From the sequence record JN673056: a DNA stretch of 64,000 bases. One strand, 5' to 3'. Source of the DNA: Escherichia phage PhaxI. The position numbers and the translations under genes are program-made. Below the pieces are notes generated by a model, which did no database searches, was not told the origin of the DNA, and saw only the letters and a program-made list of their open reading frames with translations. Below are positions 13,693-44,913 of this stretch, one piece after another (position 1 is the first letter of the stretch; each line of letters starts with the position of its first letter).

Positions 13693-15588
13693 TTAGGATG
13701 CAGCAACGATGCCGCCGCCTGATTCGATCTCGGAGAATTCCATATCTGGTCGAACTGCAGCAAAATCCAAATATACCCAATTAATGCTGTACTCAGGCTT
13801 CAACCAAATGCCTGCAACCATGGTGTTGGCTGCGATAACATCAGCAGTGTTGTTATCTTCGTCACACTTGACTTTACCATCGTAGATCGCACCCATATTT
13901 GCCAGTTGGCGAATATAAGGACGAACAGCGTTGCTGAACAGGCTGCGAGTGAACGCATCATTGTTCTCACCAAGGTAATATTTGGCGATTGCAGCGATGT
14001 TCTGTTCTGCCATAATGAACAAGCCACGAACATTGATACGATCGAAAGCAGACGGACGAGTCAGGCCAGTTTTGTCACCATACAACACGATACCTTCATT
14101 GGAGAAGGTTACGATGCTGTTAATCTGGTTGCGGTACAACACGGCACGTTCATCGGAAGACGCAGACCACGCCATTCGATTGTAGTTGTTGTATTTGCCA
14201 CGGTTGTGGAACGCAGGAGATTTGTAGATACCCGCGATTTCAATGCTTCGCGCCCAAACACCTGCGGTGCCACCACAAGCCGGAATCCAACGCATTTTGT
14301 CGTTGTACTTGTCGTACACATATGCCCAGTTATCATCCATGAAGAAATAAGAAGAGTCGCGAACAAGGCTTTCACGCCAAGCAACGACATCATCCATTTC
14401 ACGACCACGGTTGCCAACAACCGTATCACGGAGCGGGGATACGAAAGATACCGTATCTTTTCGCTCAGTAGATAAGTCGATCAATGCTTGTTGCTCAATC
14501 AGTTCTTCACAGTACGCAAATACTGGCTTCGCATCATATGCTTCAGCATTGTTCAAGACTTGGATAGCTGCCACGCGGTTGATGTTATAATCGTCTACGC
14601 CGCCTTCTAATTCAACAACACCTGCGGACAGAGCGGTAGCGAAGGTGTACACCCAATTTGATGTATCATTGATGACATCTTTGAAGTACGCATTCGCGCC
14701 ATCGGACTTTTTGGAACCCTGTGTGTTCTGCATGAGTTCGTATTTTTCGATAATAGAACCAGATGCGCCAACAGTGGTAATCACGGCGGTTGCAGTCAGC
14801 CCCTTATCATCTGGAACAATAGCAGTAACTGTCTGGGGACCAATAGCTTTATGGGTCACGATGACAGTGTTGGACTTCACGACAACAGAAGAATAAACAC
14901 TTGTCAGGGAAGTTAGTGCTGTACCGATTTTGGTTGCCAAATCGGCTGGAGTATCAGTATCCAGATATGCGATATCTTCACCTGCCACACTGATGGTGCC
15001 AGCAGCAGTAGCCGTACCAGAAACGGAGATACGGTCAACCTGACCGACCGCGCCAGCAGAGTCGGTAATGCGACCAACTTTGTCTACGACAACTACATGG
15101 AATTCACCAGACTGAGGTGCGTATGCAAAGTTATTACGGAATTCCCAAGTTGAGAATCCAGCAGCATCACAAACATTGATAGCAATATCATTACCCAGGG
15201 AACCTGGATAACGACCAGTCCAAGTGATGGACGCCGAAGGACTTGCTGTTTCAAAATCCAGTTTGTTTTTGATCGCAATCGCTGTCTGACCTTTGGTAAC
15301 AGAGTTCTTGGCCAGAGGACCAACAACACGGGTCACCCATGCCATAGAGCTGTAAGACAAAAAGTCCGCGATTACGAGAAAATCGGTCGCAGTACTGTCG
15401 TTGGGTTTGAAGAATTTCTTCACCAAACCTGTCTCACCACCAGTCACCAGCACTGGAAGTTCAACTTCACCCCATTGAAATTTGCCGACGGTCGCGCCCT
15501 GAACAACAACGGACGGGGACGTCTGAAGCGTGGCATCACGCTCAGTCCACTGAACGGACGGCGCAACGCTGAAGCTTTGAGTTGCCAT
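13693..15588 (-). CDS. tail sheath protein (gp18-like)
   Basis: about 631 aa from ATG at 15588 with SD AAGGAA (track start 15621 is TTG); size and position match T4 gp18; CTAAATAT motif about 45 nt upstream. Confidence 0.7.
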   Translation of the reverse strand: MATQSFSVAPSVQWTERDATLQTSPSVVVQGATVGKFQWGEVELPVLVTGGETGLVKKFFKPNDSTATDFLVIADFLSYSSMAWVTRVVGPLAKNSVTKGQTAIAIKNKLDFETASPSASITWTGRYPGSLGNDIAINVCDAAGFSTWEFRNNFAYAPQSGEFHVVVVDKVGRITDSAGAVGQVDRISVSGTATAAGTISVAGEDIAYLDTDTPADLATKIGTALTSLTSVYSSVVVKSNTVIVTHKAIGPQTVTAIVPDDKGLTATAVITTVGASGSIIEKYELMQNTQGSKKSDGANAYFKDVINDTSNWVYTFATALSAGVVELEGGVDDYNINRVAAIQVLNNAEAYDAKPVFAYCEELIEQQALIDLSTERKDTVSFVSPLRDTVVGNRGREMDDVVAWRESLVRDSSYFFMDDNWAYVYDKYNDKMRWIPACGGTAGVWARSIEIAGIYKSPAFHNRGKYNNYNRMAWSASSDERAVLYRNQINSIVTFSNEGIVLYGDKTGLTRPSAFDRINVRGLFIMAEQNIAAIAKYYLGENNDAFTRSLFSNAVRPYIRQLANMGAIYDGKVKCDEDNNTADVIAANTMVAGIWLKPEYSINWVYLDFAAVRPDMEFSEIESGGGIVAAS

Positions 15589-15630
15589 AATATCATTCCT
15601 TCTCGGTAGAGTTTCGCTCAATTTGAAAGA

Positions 15631-15637
15631 TATTTAG
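15631..15637 (-). promoter_or_regulatory. late-promoter-like motif CTAAATAT
   Basis: About 45 nt upstream of the tail sheath ATG. Confidence 0.4.
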
Positions 15638-15640
15638 TGA

Positions 15641-17851
15641 TCAATTCTTAAACCACTCATCCATGGTCATCCCTGACATTTCGTTGAAAACTTGAATACC
15701 CCCGAAACCAGGCAAATGCTCAGTTTCGGATGGGGTGTCTCCAACGACTAAACCGCCAAATGGGAATACCTGCTGGGATTCAGTTGAAGACATTCGGTTT
15801 CTCATGTCCTGAGAAATACTTGTAGATGTCAAGTCACTGAACCATTCTTGTTTTACCGCCCATGAATATAAGACCAACGGCATGACACAGTCATCGTGAC
15901 AACCGTCATCGGCTTCATACCGAGCGCCTTTGAACACAAATGTACTGAGTTCATCTATCGTGTCCTGGTCTTCTATCACCAACATTTCTTTCTCAATGAG
16001 CGCTTTCAGGTTAGCACAACCGATAGATCGGACTTTTCTGTTGGTATTGATACCAGGTTCCGGTTTACGTCCACCAATCCGTTTCCCCGTCCCTTTGTTA
16101 TCTGTTGATGTGAATATGATTTCTGGATATTCTATCTCTTGATAAAGAATTGTAATAACCTGACCGCCGACGTCGTTGTTTGTTTCAACAAGGACAGGAC
16201 ATTCCCCGTATTCGGTGCACATATCAGCTATCGTGTATGCATACATCATAGGAGGTATCGTATTATTCCTGTACTTGGCTGCTATGACATGCGGATATTC
16301 AGTTATATCCAGAATTGTTAAGACGGAATAATCTCCTTCCACCCCCTTCCCAGTGTCCGCAATCCCAAAGTAGAGACGTTGTGGGTCGTATTCCTTATAA
16401 ATCTTGGTGAATTCATTAGGTTCCCGATACAACTTGGACGTCATTTTATCTAAGCATTTGGCCGGAATCAATGAACCCACGGAACCACGGAACTTAATGC
16501 CAAATTCTTGATCGAAACGAGCATCCCCCAGACGGGCACGTTGTTTGGTTTCCCAATCTGGATCTTTGGTATATGCCGGAACCTTATACCATGGGACTTC
16601 AGTTAGGTGGAAGTCGTTGTATGGTGGATGGCGTGGATCTGCTTTGGTGACAATATCATAGAACAACCCTCGCTGGCCTTTCGGAGTACTTGTCAAAATA
16701 CAGCGTGATGTATCGGCAGATGCAATGGCTGGGAAAGTTGATTCCCAAAATTCAAAGTCGTTTTCGATAAACGCGACTTCGTCAACATACAGGAGCGATC
16801 GACGACCACGGATGGAGTTCCGAAGACTCGTGGCATAAGCGTATATCTTAGAACCATTCTCAAACTCTATCAGGGTAGAACCAAACTTCTCACAACCCTG
16901 CTGAAGGAAGAATGGAAGGTCTTGGTATGCCTTTCTGATACGGTCAAGAATTTCTATCGCTTGTTTCTCTTTGTTTGCCAGTACTGCGATTTCCTTATCA
17001 GAATGGAACATCGCGTACCAAAGAAGAAACGCCGCCACCACGGTCGTGTTATGACTGAGAAAGCCATTCGTGTAATAACGTTGATCACTAGATTTGACCT
17101 GCAGATCGTACATATGGTGATATTCACCAGTCTGCCAAATCTCACGGATTTCTTCTGGACCTTCGGTCGTCATGATGTATGACCCAGCATTCAGGTCTTT
17201 GGCAAATATCTCCTTCATGTCCGGAGTGAAGAACATATGTTCATCGGCCACGTTAATTCGCCTTCCGGTAACGGTGACAATAACGAATTCCGCATATTTC
17301 TTCGTCTTATGCGCTGCGATAACCGGAACCCAGCCACTATCGGATTGTACAAAGTAACGTTTGCCGAAGCGGCTGTCCACGAACTTGTCATGGTTGCCAA
17401 TGGTATTCAGCGGCACAGCGTGGTTGACGTCCTCGAAGCGGCTGTGAAGCTCCCCTATAGTCAGGAGCAACTCCTCTTGGCTGAGAGTATCGTAAACTGT
17501 GACAAGCGTGTCGCCTTTTACACATTTTCCGGACTGACGAGCCTGGACGACCGCATTAAATCGATAGTCCTGAAAGTCGTGGAACAACTGCTTCTGATAA
17601 TCATGCATATCGAAAAGGATAAAGCCCTTATCGATCGTGGTTATCTTGTAATAGTTGGCGGCGAAGTAGTGTGCATCCATAGAACATTCAACGAATTCGT
17701 CTTCTTGTTCATCTGTCAGCATTAACTCGACTCGAGGAGCACGCACAGAAAGTTTGCGCATGAACGTTTGGTCCATACGCAATTTTACATCGTCTATTTT
17801 GAACCCCGTTTTAATTGGGGCATATTCTATATCACGCTTCTGATACGCCAT
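15641..17851 (-). CDS. gp17: terminase large subunit (gp17-like) containing a mini-intein
   Basis: 736 aa; Walker A QARQSGK is interrupted and resumes with TTVVAAF; overlaps the small terminase gene at its 5' end; SD GAAGGAAG. Confidence 0.85.
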   Translation of the reverse strand: MAYQKRDIEYAPIKTGFKIDDVKLRMDQTFMRKLSVRAPRVELMLTDEQEDEFVECSMDAHYFAANYYKITTIDKGFILFDMHDYQKQLFHDFQDYRFNAVVQARQSGKCVKGDTLVTVYDTLSQEELLLTIGELHSRFEDVNHAVPLNTIGNHDKFVDSRFGKRYFVQSDSGWVPVIAAHKTKKYAEFVIVTVTGRRINVADEHMFFTPDMKEIFAKDLNAGSYIMTTEGPEEIREIWQTGEYHHMYDLQVKSSDQRYYTNGFLSHNTTVVAAFLLWYAMFHSDKEIAVLANKEKQAIEILDRIRKAYQDLPFFLQQGCEKFGSTLIEFENGSKIYAYATSLRNSIRGRRSLLYVDEVAFIENDFEFWESTFPAIASADTSRCILTSTPKGQRGLFYDIVTKADPRHPPYNDFHLTEVPWYKVPAYTKDPDWETKQRARLGDARFDQEFGIKFRGSVGSLIPAKCLDKMTSKLYREPNEFTKIYKEYDPQRLYFGIADTGKGVEGDYSVLTILDITEYPHVIAAKYRNNTIPPMMYAYTIADMCTEYGECPVLVETNNDVGGQVITILYQEIEYPEIIFTSTDNKGTGKRIGGRKPEPGINTNRKVRSIGCANLKALIEKEMLVIEDQDTIDELSTFVFKGARYEADDGCHDDCVMPLVLYSWAVKQEWFSDLTSTSISQDMRNRMSSTESQQVFPFGGLVVGDTPSETEHLPGFGGIQVFNEMSGMTMDEWFKN
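17048..17524 (-). mobile_element. mini-intein (159 aa) inserted in the terminase P-loop
   Basis: Begins CVKGDTLV (intein block A) directly after GK of the Walker A motif; ends YDLQVKSSDQRYYTNGFLSHN followed by extein T; excision would restore QARQSGKTT. Confidence 0.75.
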
Positions 17852-18512
17852 CGTCTTCTTCCTTCACATCAACTGTTTCACCATCAATGATTTCATCTTC
17901 TGGTTGTTGTGCGGCCTTTGCTTGTGCTCTTTCTTCAGCGCGACGGCGGGCATCTTCAATCGTCTTCAATAAATCGCGAGAAGATCGCGCCTTTTTCCCA
18001 ACCGATACTGTTGTTGTTCCGTCTGGTGAAGTTGTAACATCCACTGTCGTGTCATCAACAGGTGGTTCTTTATCACCTGTTACTGCCTTGATGGTTTTCT
18101 GGTTTTCCATCAAGTCTTTATTCAGACCGCGCATGAGTTCACCCAATTCACGGAAAACAGAAAATGCTCGCGGAGCTTCTGTGGATGCAGCCAATTTAGC
18201 GGCTTGTCCCATCATGAACATTGTGGCTTCTTGCATAGCATATGTTGTGTCGCGTATCCGTTTGTAATCCGTTGTAGCATCAGTGTCCGCAAACTCAGGT
18301 ACTTTGGATTCCTTGGAAGCAATATCCTCCAATGAAGGCGGTTCAGGAATCGGCTGATACCCTTCCGGACGTTCACCAAACCATTCACCTGTATTTTCAT
18401 CGAAGTCAATACCTGGACGAGGGGCGACAGCCTCCATCGCCTCCTTCCCGACTTCGTCTCGGGCAGTCACTGCATCAAGCGTGGCGAGTAACCTTTCTGA
18501 CATATTGCTCAT
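17832..18512 (-). CDS. terminase small subunit (gp16-like)
   Basis: 226 aa from ATG at 18512 with SD GGAGGA; acidic; immediately upstream of and overlapping the large terminase gene. Confidence 0.5.
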   Translation of the reverse strand: MSNMSERLLATLDAVTARDEVGKEAMEAVAPRPGIDFDENTGEWFGERPEGYQPIPEPPSLEDIASKESKVPEFADTDATTDYKRIRDTTYAMQEATMFMMGQAAKLAASTEAPRAFSVFRELGELMRGLNKDLMENQKTIKAVTGDKEPPVDDTTVDVTTSPDGTTTVSVGKKARSSRDLLKTIEDARRRAEERAQAKAAQQPEDEIIDGETVDVKEEDDGVSEA

Positions 18513-18514
18513 GA

Positions 18515-19213
18515 TCAATCCTCCGGATGATGTATGCCGTCTTTATCAACTCGGAACCACTCAGGAAGTTCCGACCATGGCATGTTCAAATCATTAGACA
18601 TTTCAATAATTATCTCTTTGATGACGTTTGGGTCCCCACCGCCCGAACCATCATCAACCCAATAATCTTCTCCATAGATGTGACCATGTAATTGAAAATT
18701 GAATGAACAATCTATGTGTGGTGATTCTGTTGCGTCTCCTTCCCAGTTGTCAGAAATCGTGTGATTTACCAACATTATCTTCACGTTCTGATCTTGAGAT
18801 AGCGTATCCGTGTCTTTTATCTGACAATCAATAGAAGGAGTGAACACAGAATAAATTTGTTCTAATACTTGCAACATTTCGACCAATTTTTTAGTTCTGA
18901 TATTGTATTCAAAATCTATAATGATCGGAATGCGTTGTTTGGACCGTGCCGTAGCGGTCGATATTTGGTTGTGGTATGACTTCGTCACCTGTTTATTGAT
19001 TTCGAACTGACCAAAGGACATTGTTGCAAATGGCAGCATATTGGCTGGCACGTTCCTGTTGAGGTCATTACGGCGGCCAATGGCCATATGCAGCGGGATT
19101 TCCATCAAGCCACGTTCGGTTTTGACTTTTAAATCTGACATGATAGCGTTGAACACATGTATGTATTTCAACAATGATTCATGATAGAAATATTTTTCAA
19201 ATGGTCTGGCCAT
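18515..19213 (-). CDS. tail completion/sheath stabilizer (gp15-like)
   Basis: 232 aa; position in the T4 13-14-15-16-17-18 order; synteny-based. Confidence 0.45.
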   Translation of the reverse strand: MARPFEKYFYHESLLKYIHVFNAIMSDLKVKTERGLMEIPLHMAIGRRNDLNRNVPANMLPFATMSFGQFEINKQVTKSYHNQISTATARSKQRIPIIIDFEYNIRTKKLVEMLQVLEQIYSVFTPSIDCQIKDTDTLSQDQNVKIMLVNHTISDNWEGDATESPHIDCSFNFQLHGHIYGEDYWVDDGSGGGDPNVIKEIIIEMSNDLNMPWSELPEWFRVDKDGIHHPED

Positions 19214-19915: not shown

Positions 19916-20626
19916 ATGATCGTCCTGACAGAAGGAATTGCTTCTAAAAGAATCAAATCATATGCTTCTTCTAGAGGTGGAATATTTCACGGATTTGTCG
20001 GTGGTAAATTTGTCACCAACCAAACTAAGTGCATTTTGTCTTGCGAATTTGGTCATGAATGGAACTCAGCAACTTATGCGAATTTGATAAATAAAGGAAG
20101 TTGGTGTCCTTCGTGTCGTGGAAACAAGAAGATCTCAAATGAAGAAGCTAAAATCAGGATATCGGAGTACGCCGTAAGCAACGGTGGTAAATTCATAAAT
20201 TTCATTGGCGGGAAGTACAAAGACAACGTGACAATTTGTGTCATGGAATGTTCTGAAACGCACAGGTGGGAATCCAGGTACGGTAATTTAGTCAACAGCC
20301 GAAGTTGGTGTCCGTATTGCGCAGAATCGGGTTACAATTATTCTAAGGAAGGTTTCTTATATATTCTAGTCAACGACGAAGGTTGTATGAAAGTGGGAAT
20401 AACCAACTCGCCTAAGAAACGTATAAATTGTTTGAGAAGCACCACCCCGTTTTACTTCAACGTTCTAGAAATATTTAATTCAACTGACGGATTATTTGTT
20501 TCCAGGTTGGAAAGAATTGCCCATAGAATGTGTAAGAGCGCGGGGTATAAGGATTTTGACGGTGCTACCGAATGGTTTGTATACGATGGATCAGTCGTAG
20601 ATTTTATCAGAAATATTTTGAAGTAG
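19916..20626 (+). CDS. T5orf172-type (GIY-YIG superfamily) endonuclease-like protein with tandem zinc-ribbon repeats
   Basis: 236 aa; two repeats of C..C.(FGH/ETH).W......WCP.C; C-terminal GFLYILVNDEGCMKVGITNSPKKR ... EWF matches the T5orf172 pattern; opposite strand to the flanking neck genes. Confidence 0.6.
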   Translation: MIVLTEGIASKRIKSYASSRGGIFHGFVGGKFVTNQTKCILSCEFGHEWNSATYANLINKGSWCPSCRGNKKISNEEAKIRISEYAVSNGGKFINFIGGKYKDNVTICVMECSETHRWESRYGNLVNSRSWCPYCAESGYNYSKEGFLYILVNDEGCMKVGITNSPKKRINCLRSTTPFYFNVLEIFNSTDGLFVSRLERIAHRMCKSAGYKDFDGATEWFVYDGSVVDFIRNILK

Positions 20627-42874: not shown

Positions 42875-43516
42875 ATGAAAACTTGTGAATTTTGCTCAAG
42901 GGATTTTGGGACCGTACAAGCATTTTGTTCTCATGTGCGACAGTGTAAACAAAATCCAGACAGAATAATAAGAAACAGGTCTGGGGTTAATAATCCCATG
43001 TATGGTAGGAAGGGTAGTAATCAATTCACCAAAGCTATAAAGTTGGGTTTGGAACCACCTAAAGTTAGGGAAGAAACTTCCCGCGCTATATCCGAAAAAT
43101 TAAAAGGAAAGGCGTGGACACAGGAAAGAAGAGAATCCTTTTCTATGAGGATGAAGGAAATCGTAAAAGAAAATCCTGATTCCTATAGTAGCCACAATGT
43201 GTGTGGTAGGTCAAAAAAGTTTGTGATAGACGGGGTTTTATTTCATTCTTCTTGGGAAGTGGTCTTTGCCAATTATTTGAATAAAAGGTCTTTGGCCTGG
43301 GTGAGAGAAGTAGAATCGATACCTTATATTTGGAAAGGTAAACAGCATTTATACTTTCCTGATTTTTACATACCGGAGTTGGATATGTATGTAGAAGTCA
43401 AGGGGTATGAAACGGAAAGAGATCATGCTAAATGGAGTTGCATTGATAATTTGATAATAATCAGGGAAACTGAGATAAATAAAATTATCTCTGGTGAAAT
43501 TATTTCGGGTCTGTAG
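42875..43516 (+). CDS. homing endonuclease-like protein (zinc finger, NUMOD-like motifs, PD-(D/E)xK-like C-terminus)
   Basis: ATG at 42875; CEFCSRDFG...CSHVRQC finger; NPMYGRKGSNQ and ETSRAISEKLKGK motifs; C-terminal FPDF...ELDMYVEVKG nuclease-like motif; stop overlaps the 5' end of tRNA-Met. Confidence 0.55.
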   Translation: MKTCEFCSRDFGTVQAFCSHVRQCKQNPDRIIRNRSGVNNPMYGRKGSNQFTKAIKLGLEPPKVREETSRAISEKLKGKAWTQERRESFSMRMKEIVKENPDSYSSHNVCGRSKKFVIDGVLFHSSWEVVFANYLNKRSLAWVREVESIPYIWKGKQHLYFPDFYIPELDMYVEVKGYETERDHAKWSCIDNLIIIRETEINKIISGEIISGL

Positions 43517-43583
43517 TTTAATAGGTTAGAACAACGGACTCATAATCCGTCAGGTCTCAGTTCAAATCTGGGTGGACCCACCA
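43507..43583 (+). tRNA. tRNA-Met (anticodon CAT); could equally be initiator or lysidine-modified Ile type
   Basis: Hand-folded cloverleaf: acceptor GGGTCTG/TGGACCC, D-stem GTTT/GAAC, anticodon stem ACGGA/TCCGT with loop CTCATAA, T-arm CTCAG-TTCAAAT-CTGGG, discriminator A, encoded CCA. Confidence 0.85.
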
Positions 43584-43689
43584 AACACAATGAGAGAAAC
43601 TGAAGTGAGAAAGCTCGGTTAAACGAGGGAGTAATTCAGGAGTATCTCACCACTAAATAAACCAGTTGTTCAATAAACAATTGGTGAGT

Positions 43690-43890
43690 ATGATGAAAAC
43701 GTTCGGTGATTTTCTTACTGAGTGGGATGGTCTCGCTACCGACAACAAAGAGATTGTTGAGTTTGTTGAAAAGCGAGGCGATAAGTGGGTTGTCCTTGAC
43801 CACACCAAGACTAAAGTTCTTGGGACACATGACACCAAAGCTGACGCGGACGCCCAATTAAGGGCGATCGAAGCGAATAAACATAGTTGA
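43690..43890 (+). CDS. hypothetical small protein (66 aa)
   Basis: ATG at 43690 with SD GGTGAG; CTAAATA motif about 35 nt upstream; sits inside the RNA island. Confidence 0.4.
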   Translation: MMKTFGDFLTEWDGLATDNKEIVEFVEKRGDKWVVLDHTKTKVLGTHDTKADADAQLRAIEANKHS

Positions 43891-44064
43891 AGGGTTCTAT
43901 ATTATGAAGAATATTTGGGCGGTGATTTCCAACAGAATTCGCGCTAGTTGGGAAGGTCGGATGGTGAGCATCAAGAACGGGTCTCATCCAAAAACTTACG
44001 ATCGTTATGATCCTGCCCTGGATCTTCATGCAGAATAAAGAGTGTTTACGAAAGTAAGAATAGA

Positions 44065-44140
44065 GACGATGTAGTTCAGTCGGTAGAACGGTGGACTGTT
44101 AATCCATATGTCGCAGGTTCAAGTCCTGCCATCGTCGCCA
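44065..44140 (+). tRNA. tRNA-Asn (anticodon GTT)
   Basis: Perfect 7-bp acceptor GACGATG/CATCGTC; D-arm GTTC-AGTCGGTA-GAAC; anticodon loop CTGTTAA; T-arm GCAGG-TTCAAGT-CCTGC; discriminator G; encoded CCA. Confidence 0.9.
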
Positions 44141-44824
44141 AATTGAAGTAGAGTATCTCGAAGCGCCTTCGGAAGTGCGAATCGCGCGATAGCTGCCAAT
44201 GTAAGGCTGCAGGATACAGATACCCAGGGGAGTGAGACCTACTTCATACAATTTCAGAAGTGTAGAGGCTACAGTAGTGCGCACCTCACGGAAAGCTACA
44301 CCGGACACTCTGATACAAATCTACCACCGCGTGGATTAGCTGAGGAAGGATGGCCGATGTCCTCAAGCGTGGCCCAGCACGTGGTGGTAGACCAAACACA
44401 GTAAGCGTTGCAGCCAGCTGTGTATAAAATGGGGTGACTCCACATCGGAAACGATGCCCCAACTTCCAGAAATGGTCGGGCGCGAAGCCTGTAAAGTTCC
44501 AGGAGATCTAACCAGAAGGCACTGGTGCCAGTTAACCAATCGGCGCTGATAAGCGCGGGGAGTTGGGCTACGGCAGATCAAATGCACAATCGGGTGTGAA
44601 GCCCGTCCAAATTACGCTCGGTCAAGCAGTCTGTTTGTAGACGGTCGGTGCGGGTTTTGCAAGACCCAAATTGACCATCAAATAGATGAGGCGCGACTCT
44701 CTGGGTTGATCACCAGGGTGCTGAGGTTCAACCCCTCTAACGGACACCAATAAGTCGTTTCGGTCAGGTCAAGAACCCAGATTTAGGTCATGGCTTGGAA
44801 ATTCTTGACCGAAGCGCAGTATAC

Positions 44825-44913
44825 GGAAGGTTGCCCGAGAGGTTTAAGGGACTCGACTGCTAATCGAGTGGGGCTTTTAGCCCCCGAAGGTTCGAATCCT
44901 TCACCTTCCGCCA
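44825..44913 (+). tRNA. tRNA-Ser (anticodon GCT), type II with long variable arm
   Basis: Perfect acceptor GGAAGGT/ACCTTCC; anticodon stem CTCGA/TCGAG with loop CTGCTAA; long variable arm GGGGCTTTTAGCCCCC; T-arm GAAGG-TTCGAAT-CCTTC; discriminator G; CCA. Confidence 0.9.

What the first reader, a model, noticed from the sequence alone, without database searches (positions are those of the whole stretch)
17048..17524. Mini-intein splitting the Walker A P-loop of the terminase large subunit
The terminase ATPase motif reads QARQSGK then CVKGDTLVTV... for 159 residues ending ...YTNGFLSHN then TTVVAAF. The insert starts with Cys and a block-A-like motif and ends with His-Asn followed by Thr, the classic intein boundaries. 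Removing it restores a canonical GKT P-loop. At 159 aa it has no room for a homing-endonuclease domain, so it is a mini-intein whose splicing is required for packaging.
Basis: partly seen in the sequence, partly recalled or inferred. Interest (0 to 1): 0.6.

Follow-up and report, generated by a model that had tools for sequence, protein, structure and literature searches.

The report
Known mini-intein in phage terminase P-loop
The large terminase gene of this Vi01/CBA120-like (Kuttervirus) phage carries a 159-residue self-splicing mini-intein exactly between the Lys and Thr of its ATP-binding loop; it is real, but it was already published and annotated for sister phages, so it is ordinary.

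Summary
ORF 15641-17851(-) is a T4 gp17-type large terminase (TerL) of 736 aa. Window 17048-17524(-) encodes 159 aa, CVKGDTLVTV...FLSHN, inserted in ARQSGK|TTVVAAF.

Evidence that it is a class 1 mini-intein:
- Removing it gives a 577-aa protein that aligns without a gap to T4 gp17 (SRQLGKTT).
- A relative in the same family, Erwinia phage phiEa2809, reads QARQSGKTTVVAAFL with the 159 aa precisely absent.
- Scanned alone, the insert passes Pfam Intein_splicing.
- Its AlphaFold model (pLDDT 94.8) matches only solved inteins at the top of the list.
- Across 22 homologues of 31-79% identity the invariant residues include Cys1, the block B His, the block F Asp and the terminal Ser-His-Asn. Thr or Ser always follows.
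- It has no endonuclease domain.

It is not new. The same intein was reported in 2013 for Salmonella phages Maynard and Marshall. Klebsiella phage Magnus carries a mat_peptide "intein" annotation with identical boundaries. The Lys|Thr P-loop site is called the "classic" intein site.

Two extras came up. A 373-nt intein segment is 97% identical between this Kuttervirus lineage and Agtrevirus AV101, although the flanks are 73-85% identical, which indicates horizontal exchange. Published virion proteomics of a Vi01-like phage found TerL peptides only inside the intein. Splicing of this allele is untested.

The parts
15641..17851 (-). TerL precursor gene (736 aa, 84.7 kDa; T4 gp17-type large terminase), including the stop codon
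   Evidence: It is 100% identical to TerL of Escherichia phage PhaxI (P0003).
17525..17851 (-). N-extein, residues 1-109, ending ...VVQARQSGK (first half of Walker A)
17525..17542 (-). Walker A N-terminal part, ARQSGK; Lys109 is the -1 residue
   Evidence: It aligns to T4 gp17 SRQLGK.
17048..17524 (-). Mini-intein, 159 aa (18.3 kDa), a single HINT domain with no endonuclease domain
   Evidence: The boundaries are the same as the mat_peptide 'intein' of Klebsiella phage Magnus.
17495..17524 (-). Block A, CVKGDTLVTV; Cys1 is the N-terminal nucleophile
   Evidence: Cys1 is invariant in 22 homologues. Coordinates.
17231..17254 (-). Block B, NVADEHMF; His96 is the conserved block B His, and Ala93 takes the place of the usual Thr
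   Evidence: A93, D94 and H96 are invariant in 22 homologues. Coordinates.
17096..17113 (-). Block F, MYDLQV, with invariant Asp140
17048..17071 (-). Block G, TNGFLSHN; penultimate His158 and terminal Asn159
   Evidence: L156, S157, H158 and N159 are invariant. Coordinates.
15641..17047 (-). C-extein, residues 269-736 plus the stop codon, beginning TTVVAAF. Thr269 is the +1 nucleophile and the Walker A Thr.
17152..17524 (-). The 5' 373 nt of the intein form a horizontally exchanged patch. It is 97% nt identical to Agtrevirus AV101 and the related contig L006, but only 70% identical to same-genus Vi01.
   Evidence: Sliding windows place the high-identity run at about 17110-17534.
17832..18518 (-). 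Small terminase subunit gene (gp16-like), overlapping the TerL start by 20 nt. There is no endonuclease gene between TerS and TerL in this phage.
   Evidence: By contrast, Dickeya phage phiDP23.1 has a NUMOD3 gene at this position.

Best explanation
This is a canonical class 1 mini-intein. It is an endonuclease-free HINT domain, translated in frame inside the large terminase, and it sits between the invariant Lys and the Thr of the Walker A P-loop.

Inferred mechanism (the standard four steps):
1. Cys1 attacks the Lys109 carbonyl (N-S acyl shift).
2. The Thr269 (+1) hydroxyl takes over the N-extein by trans-esterification.
3. Asn159 cyclises, helped by His158, and releases the 18.3-kDa intein.
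4. An O-N shift gives a normal peptide bond. The product is a 66.4-kDa TerL with an intact ARQSGKTT P-loop.

Until splicing occurs the ATPase site is split, so the packaging motor should be inactive.

Shown here: the anatomy, homology, fold and motif conservation, the existence of a precise intein-free allele, and purifying selection. Inferred, not shown: that this allele splices, and that splicing is obligatory for packaging.
For: The host protein is TerL.

Removing the insert restores a protein colinear with T4 gp17 across the junction.

Erwinia phage phiEa2809 (Ackermannviridae; 84% identical to the window protein over the first 244 residues of the spliced TerL) and five metagenomic TerLs (P0015-P0019) read ARQSGKTTVVAAFLLWYA with nothing inserted.

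Profile and fold evidence:
- Pfam PF14890 Intein_splicing scores 36.3 bits against a cut-off of 35.8 when the insert is scanned alone, and 20 of 22 homologues hit it.
- Sequence hits in the PDB are inteins: Cat 6dsl E 0.003, VidaL 6vgv E 0.005.
- The AlphaFold model built on a 22-sequence alignment has pLDDT 94.8 and is all-beta.
- 49 of the 50 Foldseek PDB hits listed are inteins or BIL/HINT domains, led by VidaL at E 2.4e-12 and TM 0.76/0.83.

Among 22 inteins at this site that are 31-79% identical, the invariant columns include C1, A93-D94-x-H96, D140 and L156-S157-H158-N159. All 30 full inserts recovered at this site end in HN followed by T or S, and 29 of the 30 start with Cys.

Non-synonymous change per site is well below synonymous change in the intein (pN 0.145 against pS 0.77, window versus Vi01).

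There is no Rfam hit, so it is not an intron.

Literature:
- The same intein was reported in phages Maynard and Marshall (PMC3868846, PMC3853055) and Mooltan (PMC6486243).
- The Lys|Thr site is described as the 'classic' P-loop insertion, and five representative mycobacteriophage terminase inteins spliced in a reporter assay, though the Lys|Thr (TerL1-a) type was not among those tested (PMC5050341).
- In CsCl-purified Vi01-like phage Sajous1, all 4 spectra assigned to TerL fall inside the intein (PMC10892097 Table S3). The chance of that is about 0.004-0.01 if the peptides came from the precursor.
Against: - There is no experimental splicing data for this allele or for any Ackermannviridae TerL.
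- The block B Thr is replaced by Ala. This holds across the whole family, so it is evidently tolerated.
- Thr+1 is a weaker nucleophile than Cys or Ser.
- The Pfam score is only just above the cut-off when the insert is scanned alone, and below it (29.6 bits) in the full-length context.
- The proteomic hint rests on 4 spectra from a phage whose intein is about 79% identical to this one. It would also fit cleavage without ligation, or chance.
Confidence: 0.92

Rival explanations
1. It is a degenerate HINT-derived insertion that no longer splices and stays in the mature terminase as an extra domain looping out of the P-loop.
For: The insert is present in about 280 related phage genomes. It has no endonuclease that would explain spread by homing. 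The canonical block B Thr is Ala. The Pfam score is marginal.
Against: The positions that stay invariant over 31-79% divergence include all the splicing residues (C1, H96, D140, H158, N159, and Thr/Ser at +1), while most of the rest of the domain varies. A 159-aa domain between the Lys and Thr of GKT is hard to reconcile with nucleotide binding. Precise intein-free alleles function in relatives. The published TerL peptides come only from the intein.
Confidence: 0.04
2. It is a HINT domain that only cleaves, in the manner of a bacterial intein-like (BIL) domain. This would give separate N- and C-fragments of TerL that work non-covalently.
For: BIL/HINT domains appear among the structural neighbours (6y75). 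Intein-only peptides in the proteomics are also compatible with cleavage.
Against: The +1 nucleophile (Thr or Ser), which is needed only for ligation, is conserved in all 30 inserts at this site. The insert sits in a conserved catalytic motif of a conserved protein, which is not typical of BIL domains. Cleavage would leave the P-loop broken between Lys and Thr.
Confidence: 0.02
3. It is a self-splicing intron, or an assembly or annotation artefact, and not a translated element.
For: T4-like phages do carry group I introns.
Against: The segment is in frame with no stop codon. It is under protein-level purifying selection. It has no Rfam match. It is identical or near-identical in about 90 independently sequenced genomes. 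Its peptides were detected by MS in a relative.
Confidence: 0.01

Closest known systems
TerL intein of Vi01-like Salmonella phages Maynard and Marshall (Genome Announc 2013; RefSeq 'intein' YP_008772116.1) and Mooltan
   Same: It occupies the same host gene and the same Lys|Thr site, has the same length of 159 aa and the same boundaries, and comes from the same genus (Kuttervirus). It is 79% identical.
   Different: The window carries the CBA120/PhaxI-type allele, whose 5' 373 nt are only 70% identical at the DNA level to the Vi01 type although the exteins are 97-99% identical at the protein level. In the three CBA120-type records whose feature names I examined (CBA120, PhaxI, BPS7), the gene is named only terminase or hypothetical protein, with no mention of an intein.
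Klebsiella phage Magnus (Taipeivirus) TerL, annotated with mat_peptide 'intein'
   Same: The annotated intein covers the homologous 477 nt, with identical boundaries. It is 76% identical.
   Different: It belongs to a different genus, and its exteins are 86-88% identical to those of the window.
'Classic' P-loop (Lys|Thr) inteins, e.g. mycobacteriophage TerL1-a (Kelley et al. 2016, PMC5050341)
   Same: The insertion point is the same, between the invariant Walker A Lys and the nucleophilic Thr. That paper likewise concludes that splicing is needed to build the active site.
   Different: Those inteins sit in a different terminase family (terminase_1, whereas this TerL is the T4 gp17 / Terminase_6 type). 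I found no close sequence relationship between the inteins. That paper found endonuclease domains in TerL inteins at other sites (TerL1-b and TerL1-c).
Naturally and atypically split TerL inteins and their engineered derivatives (AceL-TerL, GOS-TerL, Cat, VidaL)
   Same: These are the closest solved structures by sequence and by fold (6dsl E 0.003; 6vgv Foldseek E 2.4e-12). Many metagenomic TerL C-fragments begin at the position equivalent to intein residue ~46 and continue ...YYTNGILSHN|T(T/S)..., that is, at the same site.
   Different: The window's intein is contiguous (cis-splicing). According to the review PMC11766414, AceL-TerL and Cat have Cys+1 and GOS-TerL has Ser1/Cys+1; this one has Cys1/Thr+1.

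Membership tests
Class 1 intein (HINT superfamily) | N-terminal Cys/Ser nucleophile (block A) | tested here: met
   Cys1 is present. It is invariant in 22 homologues, and 29 of the 30 inserts at this site start with Cys.
Class 1 intein (HINT superfamily) | Block B TxxH motif | tested here: inconclusive
   His96 is present and invariant, but the Thr position is Ala (ADEH) in the whole family. Whether an intein without this Thr splices normally I know only from memory; it was not checked here.
Class 1 intein (HINT superfamily) | Block F Asp and block G ending in His-Asn | tested here: met
   D140, H158 and N159 are invariant.
Class 1 intein (HINT superfamily) | Cys, Ser or Thr as the first C-extein residue | tested here: met
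   Thr269 is the +1 residue. Thr or Ser occupies +1 in all 30 inserts.
Class 1 intein (HINT superfamily) | HINT fold | tested here: met
   The AlphaFold model has pLDDT 94.8. The top Foldseek PDB hits are all inteins, with E down to 2.4e-12 and TM up to 0.83.
Class 1 intein (HINT superfamily) | Curated profile match (Pfam PF14890 Intein_splicing) | tested here: met
   The insert alone scores 36.3 bits against a cut-off of 35.8. In the full-length protein it scores 29.6 bits, below the cut-off.
Class 1 intein (HINT superfamily) | In-frame insertion in a conserved host protein, with homologues that lack it precisely | tested here: met
   phiEa2809, P0015-P0019 and T4 gp17 all lack it precisely.
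Class 1 intein (HINT superfamily) | Autocatalytic excision with ligation of the exteins | not testable with these tools
   The only support is indirect: intein-only TerL peptides in purified Sajous1 phage.
Mini-intein | No homing-endonuclease domain between the splicing blocks | tested here: met
   The insert is 159 aa and models as a single HINT domain. Pfam finds only Intein_splicing. Larger relatives at the same site reach 334-443 aa, and one of them (P0121) carries LAGLIDADG.
Class 3 intein | No N-terminal nucleophile; block F Cys as branch nucleophile (WCT triplet) | tested here: not met
   The insert starts with Cys1, and the block F motif is M-Y-D-L with Asp and no Cys.
Split intein (atypical, AceL-TerL type) | The intein is encoded as two separately translated fragments | tested here: not met
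   A single uninterrupted ORF runs through the intein.
Bacterial intein-like (BIL) domain | HINT domain in variable regions of non-conserved proteins, often without a +1 nucleophile | tested here: not met
   The insert lies in the Walker A motif of a conserved enzyme, and the +1 Thr/Ser is conserved.

The most novel reading that the evidence does not exclude
The endonuclease-free mini-intein may be an actively exchanged cassette and not a frozen relic. A roughly 370-420-nt intein segment moved recently between a Kuttervirus (Cvivirinae) lineage and an Agtrevirus (Aglimvirinae) lineage that share hosts. The move was by gene conversion between two intein-bearing alleles, possibly promoted by the free-standing nucleases that are common in these genomes. 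After splicing, the 18-kDa intein may persist as a stable protein that co-purifies with virions. The exchange itself is well supported. The nuclease-assisted mechanism and any role for the free intein are speculation.
Probability: 0.35. Interest if true: 0.4.

Novelty: already known. Interest (0 to 1): 0.2.

Why it matters
The intein is a post-translational checkpoint on the DNA-packaging motor of a phage group that is widely used for Salmonella and E. coli O157 biocontrol. Annotators often miss it: many records call the gene just 'terminase' or 'hypothetical protein'. This distorts TerL phylogenies and the inference of packaging strategy from TerL.

The intein belongs to the same sequence family as the atypically split TerL inteins used in protein engineering. 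The contiguous Cys1/Thr+1 Ackermannviridae alleles could therefore be a source of new splicing tools.

None of this changes current understanding. The element and its insertion site were already described.

Tried and rejected
- Single-sequence AlphaFold gave pLDDT 31 and was useless. It was redone with a 22-sequence alignment.
- The search for homologous proteins with the intein alone returned only 2 hits. The homologues came from searching with the full TerL and from the representative library.
- PHROGs has no family for the intein alone.
- Rfam at relaxed threshold over 15400-18600 found nothing, so an intron was rejected.
- I looked for an endonuclease that could drive mobility. There is none inside the intein and none between TerS and TerL in the window. 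A NUMOD3 gene sits there in Dickeya phage phiDP23.1, and a T5orf172-type gene lies 2.4 kb upstream in the window. Neither co-occurs with the shared intein allele, since AV101 and L006 lack both. No link could be made.
- A profile built from the family found no second intein of this family in the 64-kb window. Other intein families were not screened.
- Searches for 'intein' together with Ackermannviridae, Kuttervirus, CBA120, Viunalikevirus or Limestonevirus found one paper holding both (PMC7409376, on spounavirus reclassification, with 2 mentions of intein), which I did not open. Only genome announcements mention this intein.
- I did not determine the direction or the donor of the intein exchange. 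Neither Vi01 (70%) nor Ag3 (73%) resembles the shared patch.
Full report
**What is there**

The finding's coordinates are exact, but the gene is on the minus strand. ORF 15641..17851(-) encodes a 736-aa protein. Translating 17048-17524 on the minus strand gives the 159 residues quoted, CVKGDTLVTV...YYTNGFLSHN. The plus strand gives a frame with a stop.

The protein is a T4 gp17-type large terminase (TerL): Pfam Terminase_6N E 4.8e-14, PHROG phrog_2 E 8e-53. The insert is residues 110-268, flanked by ...VVQARQSGK and TTVVAAFLLWY.... Upstream lies the small terminase gene (17832-18518, overlapping by 20 nt) and downstream the tail sheath gene.

The window is a Kuttervirus (Ackermannviridae). The TerL gene is 99% identical at the DNA level to CBA120, BPS7, S118 and others. 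The protein is 100% identical to that of Escherichia phage PhaxI.

**Is it an intein?**

Five independent lines of evidence agree.

1. Colinearity. The 577-aa sequence without the insert aligns to T4 gp17 (3ezk, E 1.2e-71) with no gap at the junction: ARQSGKTTVVAAF against SRQLGKTTVVAIF, the Walker A loop.

2. A precise empty site. Erwinia phage phiEa2809, of the same family, is 84% identical to the window protein over the first 244 residues of the spliced TerL and matches in a single tblastn piece. It reads QARQSGKTTVVAAFL with exactly these 159 residues missing. Five metagenomic TerLs (P0015-P0019, 575-581 aa) do the same.

3. Profiles. Scanned alone, the insert passes Pfam Intein_splicing (36.3 bits against a cut-off of 35.8), and 20 of 22 homologues hit that model. 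In the full-length context the score was 29.6 bits, below the cut-off. The only meaningful PDB sequence hits are inteins: Cat 6dsl E 0.003, VidaL 6vgv E 0.005, PabCDC21-1 and gp41-1.

4. Fold. A single-sequence AlphaFold run failed with pLDDT 31. With a 22-sequence alignment the model has pLDDT 94.8 and pTM 0.87 and is nearly all-beta. 49 of the 50 Foldseek PDB hits listed are inteins or BIL/HINT domains, led by VidaL at E 2.4e-12 and TM 0.76/0.83.

5. Conservation. I extracted the insert at this site from 30 TerLs, with lengths of 157-443 aa.
   - 29 of the 30 start with Cys; one starts with Ala.
   - All end in HN followed by Thr or Ser.
   - In an alignment of 22 mini-versions that are 31-79% identical to the window's, the invariant columns are C1, K47, G64, T74, A93-D94-x-H96 (block B), M138, D140 (block F), T152 and L156-S157-H158-N159 (block G).
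   - This set includes every residue that the class 1 splicing mechanism needs.
   - The one departure from the textbook motif is Ala in place of the block B Thr, and it holds across the whole family.

Non-synonymous change per site is far below synonymous change in the intein (pN 0.145, pS 0.77, window versus Vi01). There is no Rfam match. The element is therefore translated and under protein-level selection, and it is not an intron.

At 159 aa with one HINT domain and no other Pfam domain, it is a mini-intein. Larger relatives at the same site carry extra sequence, and one of them (P0121) has a LAGLIDADG domain.

**How it most likely works**

The standard class 1 pathway is inferred:
- Cys1 undergoes an N-S acyl shift at Lys109.
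- Thr269 attacks by trans-esterification.
- Asn159 cyclises, assisted by His158.
- An O-N shift completes the peptide bond.

This yields a 66.4-kDa TerL with an intact ARQSGKTT P-loop and a free 18.3-kDa intein (masses). Because the Walker A loop is split between its Lys and Thr, the precursor should be unable to bind or hydrolyse ATP, so splicing should gate packaging. That is inference. It matches what Kelley et al. concluded for mycobacteriophage TerL inteins. In that study five representative terminase inteins spliced efficiently in a reporter, although the Lys|Thr (TerL1-a) type was not among those tested (PMC5050341).

One piece of indirect in vivo evidence turned up. In the published LC-MS/MS of CsCl-purified Vi01-like phage Sajous1, the four spectra assigned to TerL are:
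- (K)RFEGPNHAVPLNTIGNHNK
- (R)FEGPNHAVPLNTIGNHNK
- (R)YFVESDTGWVPVIAAHK
- (K)EYAEYVVR

All four lie inside the intein (intein positions 29/30-47, 57-73 and 76-83). None lies in the 577 extein residues (PMC10892097 Table S3). If peptides were drawn from the unspliced precursor, three distinct peptides all falling in the intein has a chance of about 0.004-0.01. This fits a free, stable excised intein. It rests on few spectra, from a phage whose intein is about 79% identical to this one, and the authors did not comment on it.

**Comparison with what is known**

The intein is already known.
- The genome announcements of Salmonella phages Maynard and Marshall (2013) state that the large terminase is interrupted by an intein. 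RefSeq holds the 159-aa 'intein' product, which is 79% identical to the window's.
- Mooltan's announcement repeats the observation.
- Klebsiella phage Magnus carries a mat_peptide 'intein' on exactly the homologous 477 nt.
- Dickeya phage phiDP23.1 calls the whole protein a 'pretoxin HINT domain protein'.
- The Lys|Thr position is described as the 'classic' P-loop intein insertion.

About 280 phage records carry a homologue covering at least 80% of the intein. Within Ackermannviridae I confirmed it in Kuttervirus, Agtrevirus, Taipeivirus, the Dickeya-infecting Aglimvirinae, and (in a divergent form) Vapseptimavirus.

The wider family has 701 representatives at E<=0.001. It includes many TerL C-fragments that begin at intein position ~46 and continue ...SHN|T(T/S). 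These are naturally and atypically split inteins at the same site, and they are relatives of AceL-TerL, Cat and VidaL. The family also includes a copy in the GK|T P-loop of a DnaB-like helicase (P0136).

**What may be new, modestly**

The intein and the exteins have different histories.

| Comparison | Protein identity, exteins | Protein identity, intein |
|---|---|---|
| Window vs Vi01 (same genus) | 97-99% | 79% |
| Window vs P0005 (Agtrevirus-type TerL) | 87% | 97% |

At the DNA level the pattern is sharper.
- Gene nt 328-700 (window 17152-17524) are 97% identical between the window and Agtrevirus AV101 or contig L006.
- The same segment is only 70% identical between the window and Vi01, and 73% between AV101 and Ag3.
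- The last 104 nt of the intein and both exteins follow the phage phylogeny: window-Vi01 81-91%, AV101-Ag3 88-97%, and 73-85% across subfamilies.

In a 15.5-kb alignment of the window against L006, the longest run of 100-nt windows at or above 93% identity is 17110-17534, which falls almost entirely within the intein (intein 17048-17524). Two shorter runs occur, one at the TerL 3' end and tail-sheath gene start and one within the tail sheath gene.

This is best read as a recent gene-conversion patch between two intein-bearing alleles of phages that share E. coli and Salmonella hosts. It is not homing into an empty site. No endonuclease could be tied to it.

**Verdict**

The element is a textbook class 1 mini-intein at the classic P-loop site, and it is already published and annotated in sister phages. 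Interest is low. The residual interest lies in the cross-subfamily allele exchange of an endonuclease-free intein and in the proteomic hint of a free intein. Both are cheap to test.

Noticed in passing
window 19916-20626 (+): A 236-aa ORF lies antisense between the gp14 and gp13 neck genes. It has CapR, MUG113 and T5orf172 domains, which I recall as GIY-YIG-like (not checked here). Vi01, Ag3 and AV101 have only a 70-aa ORF at this position. Only 39 of 190 related records cover the whole region, and these include a Dickeya phage from the other subfamily at 89% identity. It looks like a sporadically distributed free-standing endonuclease-type mobile gene, 2.4 kb upstream of the intein.
   Followed up: partly
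window 16778-16834 (-), TerL residues 340-358: Just before Walker B (LLYVDE) the window reads ATSLRNSIRGRR-SLLYVDE, where Vi01, Magnus, phiDP23.1 and phiEa2809 read ATS-SDSIRGRSVSLLYVDE. At the DNA level this looks like small compensating indels: TCTTCGGAC is read in another frame after a +2/+1 insertion, and 3 nt are lost later. The functional consequence is unknown.
   Followed up: partly
L002 1309-2187 (Dickeya phage phiDP23.1): A gene annotated as 'NUMOD3 motif family protein', which looks like a free-standing homing endonuclease, sits between the small and large terminase genes, directly upstream of the intein-containing TerL. It is absent at this position in the window, Vi01, Magnus, AV101 and Ag3.
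   Followed up: no
P0061 (Vibrio phage VP-1 TerL), P0059, P0052, P0094: These TerL-annotated proteins have the ATPase domain followed by a GIY-YIG nuclease domain (residues ~500-590), with no hit to the terminase nuclease domain. Three of the four also carry the P-loop intein. The TerL gene in these phages seems to be interrupted by, or fused to, an endonuclease gene.
   Followed up: no
P0140 and P0123 (metagenomic TerL C-fragments): These proteins begin with the C-terminal ~113 residues of a P-loop intein, so they are naturally split there. They also contain a second complete intein further on, ending ...SHN|C just before the Walker B motif.
   Followed up: no
P0136 (metagenomic protein, 632 aa): An intein of the same sequence family (CVSGDT...YYTNGILSHN|T) sits in the GTGVGK|T P-loop of a DnaB-like helicase. 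The family therefore occupies the same P-loop position in different ATPases.
   Followed up: no
GenBank MN871475.1 and OR844942.1 (hits H16, H27): Records named 'Pseudomonas phage Pa-sanjiao' and 'Enterococcus phage Efm 3-10' have a TerL gene 99% identical to this Salmonella/E. coli Kuttervirus. The host labels are probably wrong, or the samples were contaminated.
   Followed up: no
window 43507-44913 (+): There is a cluster of three tRNA genes: Met-CAT, Asn-GTT and Ser-GCT.
   Followed up: no
PMC10892097 Table S3 (phage Sajous1): All four MS spectra assigned to the large terminase of a CsCl-purified Vi01-like phage map inside the intein and none map to the exteins. The authors did not remark on it. 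The free intein may co-purify with, or be carried in, virions.
   Followed up: partly
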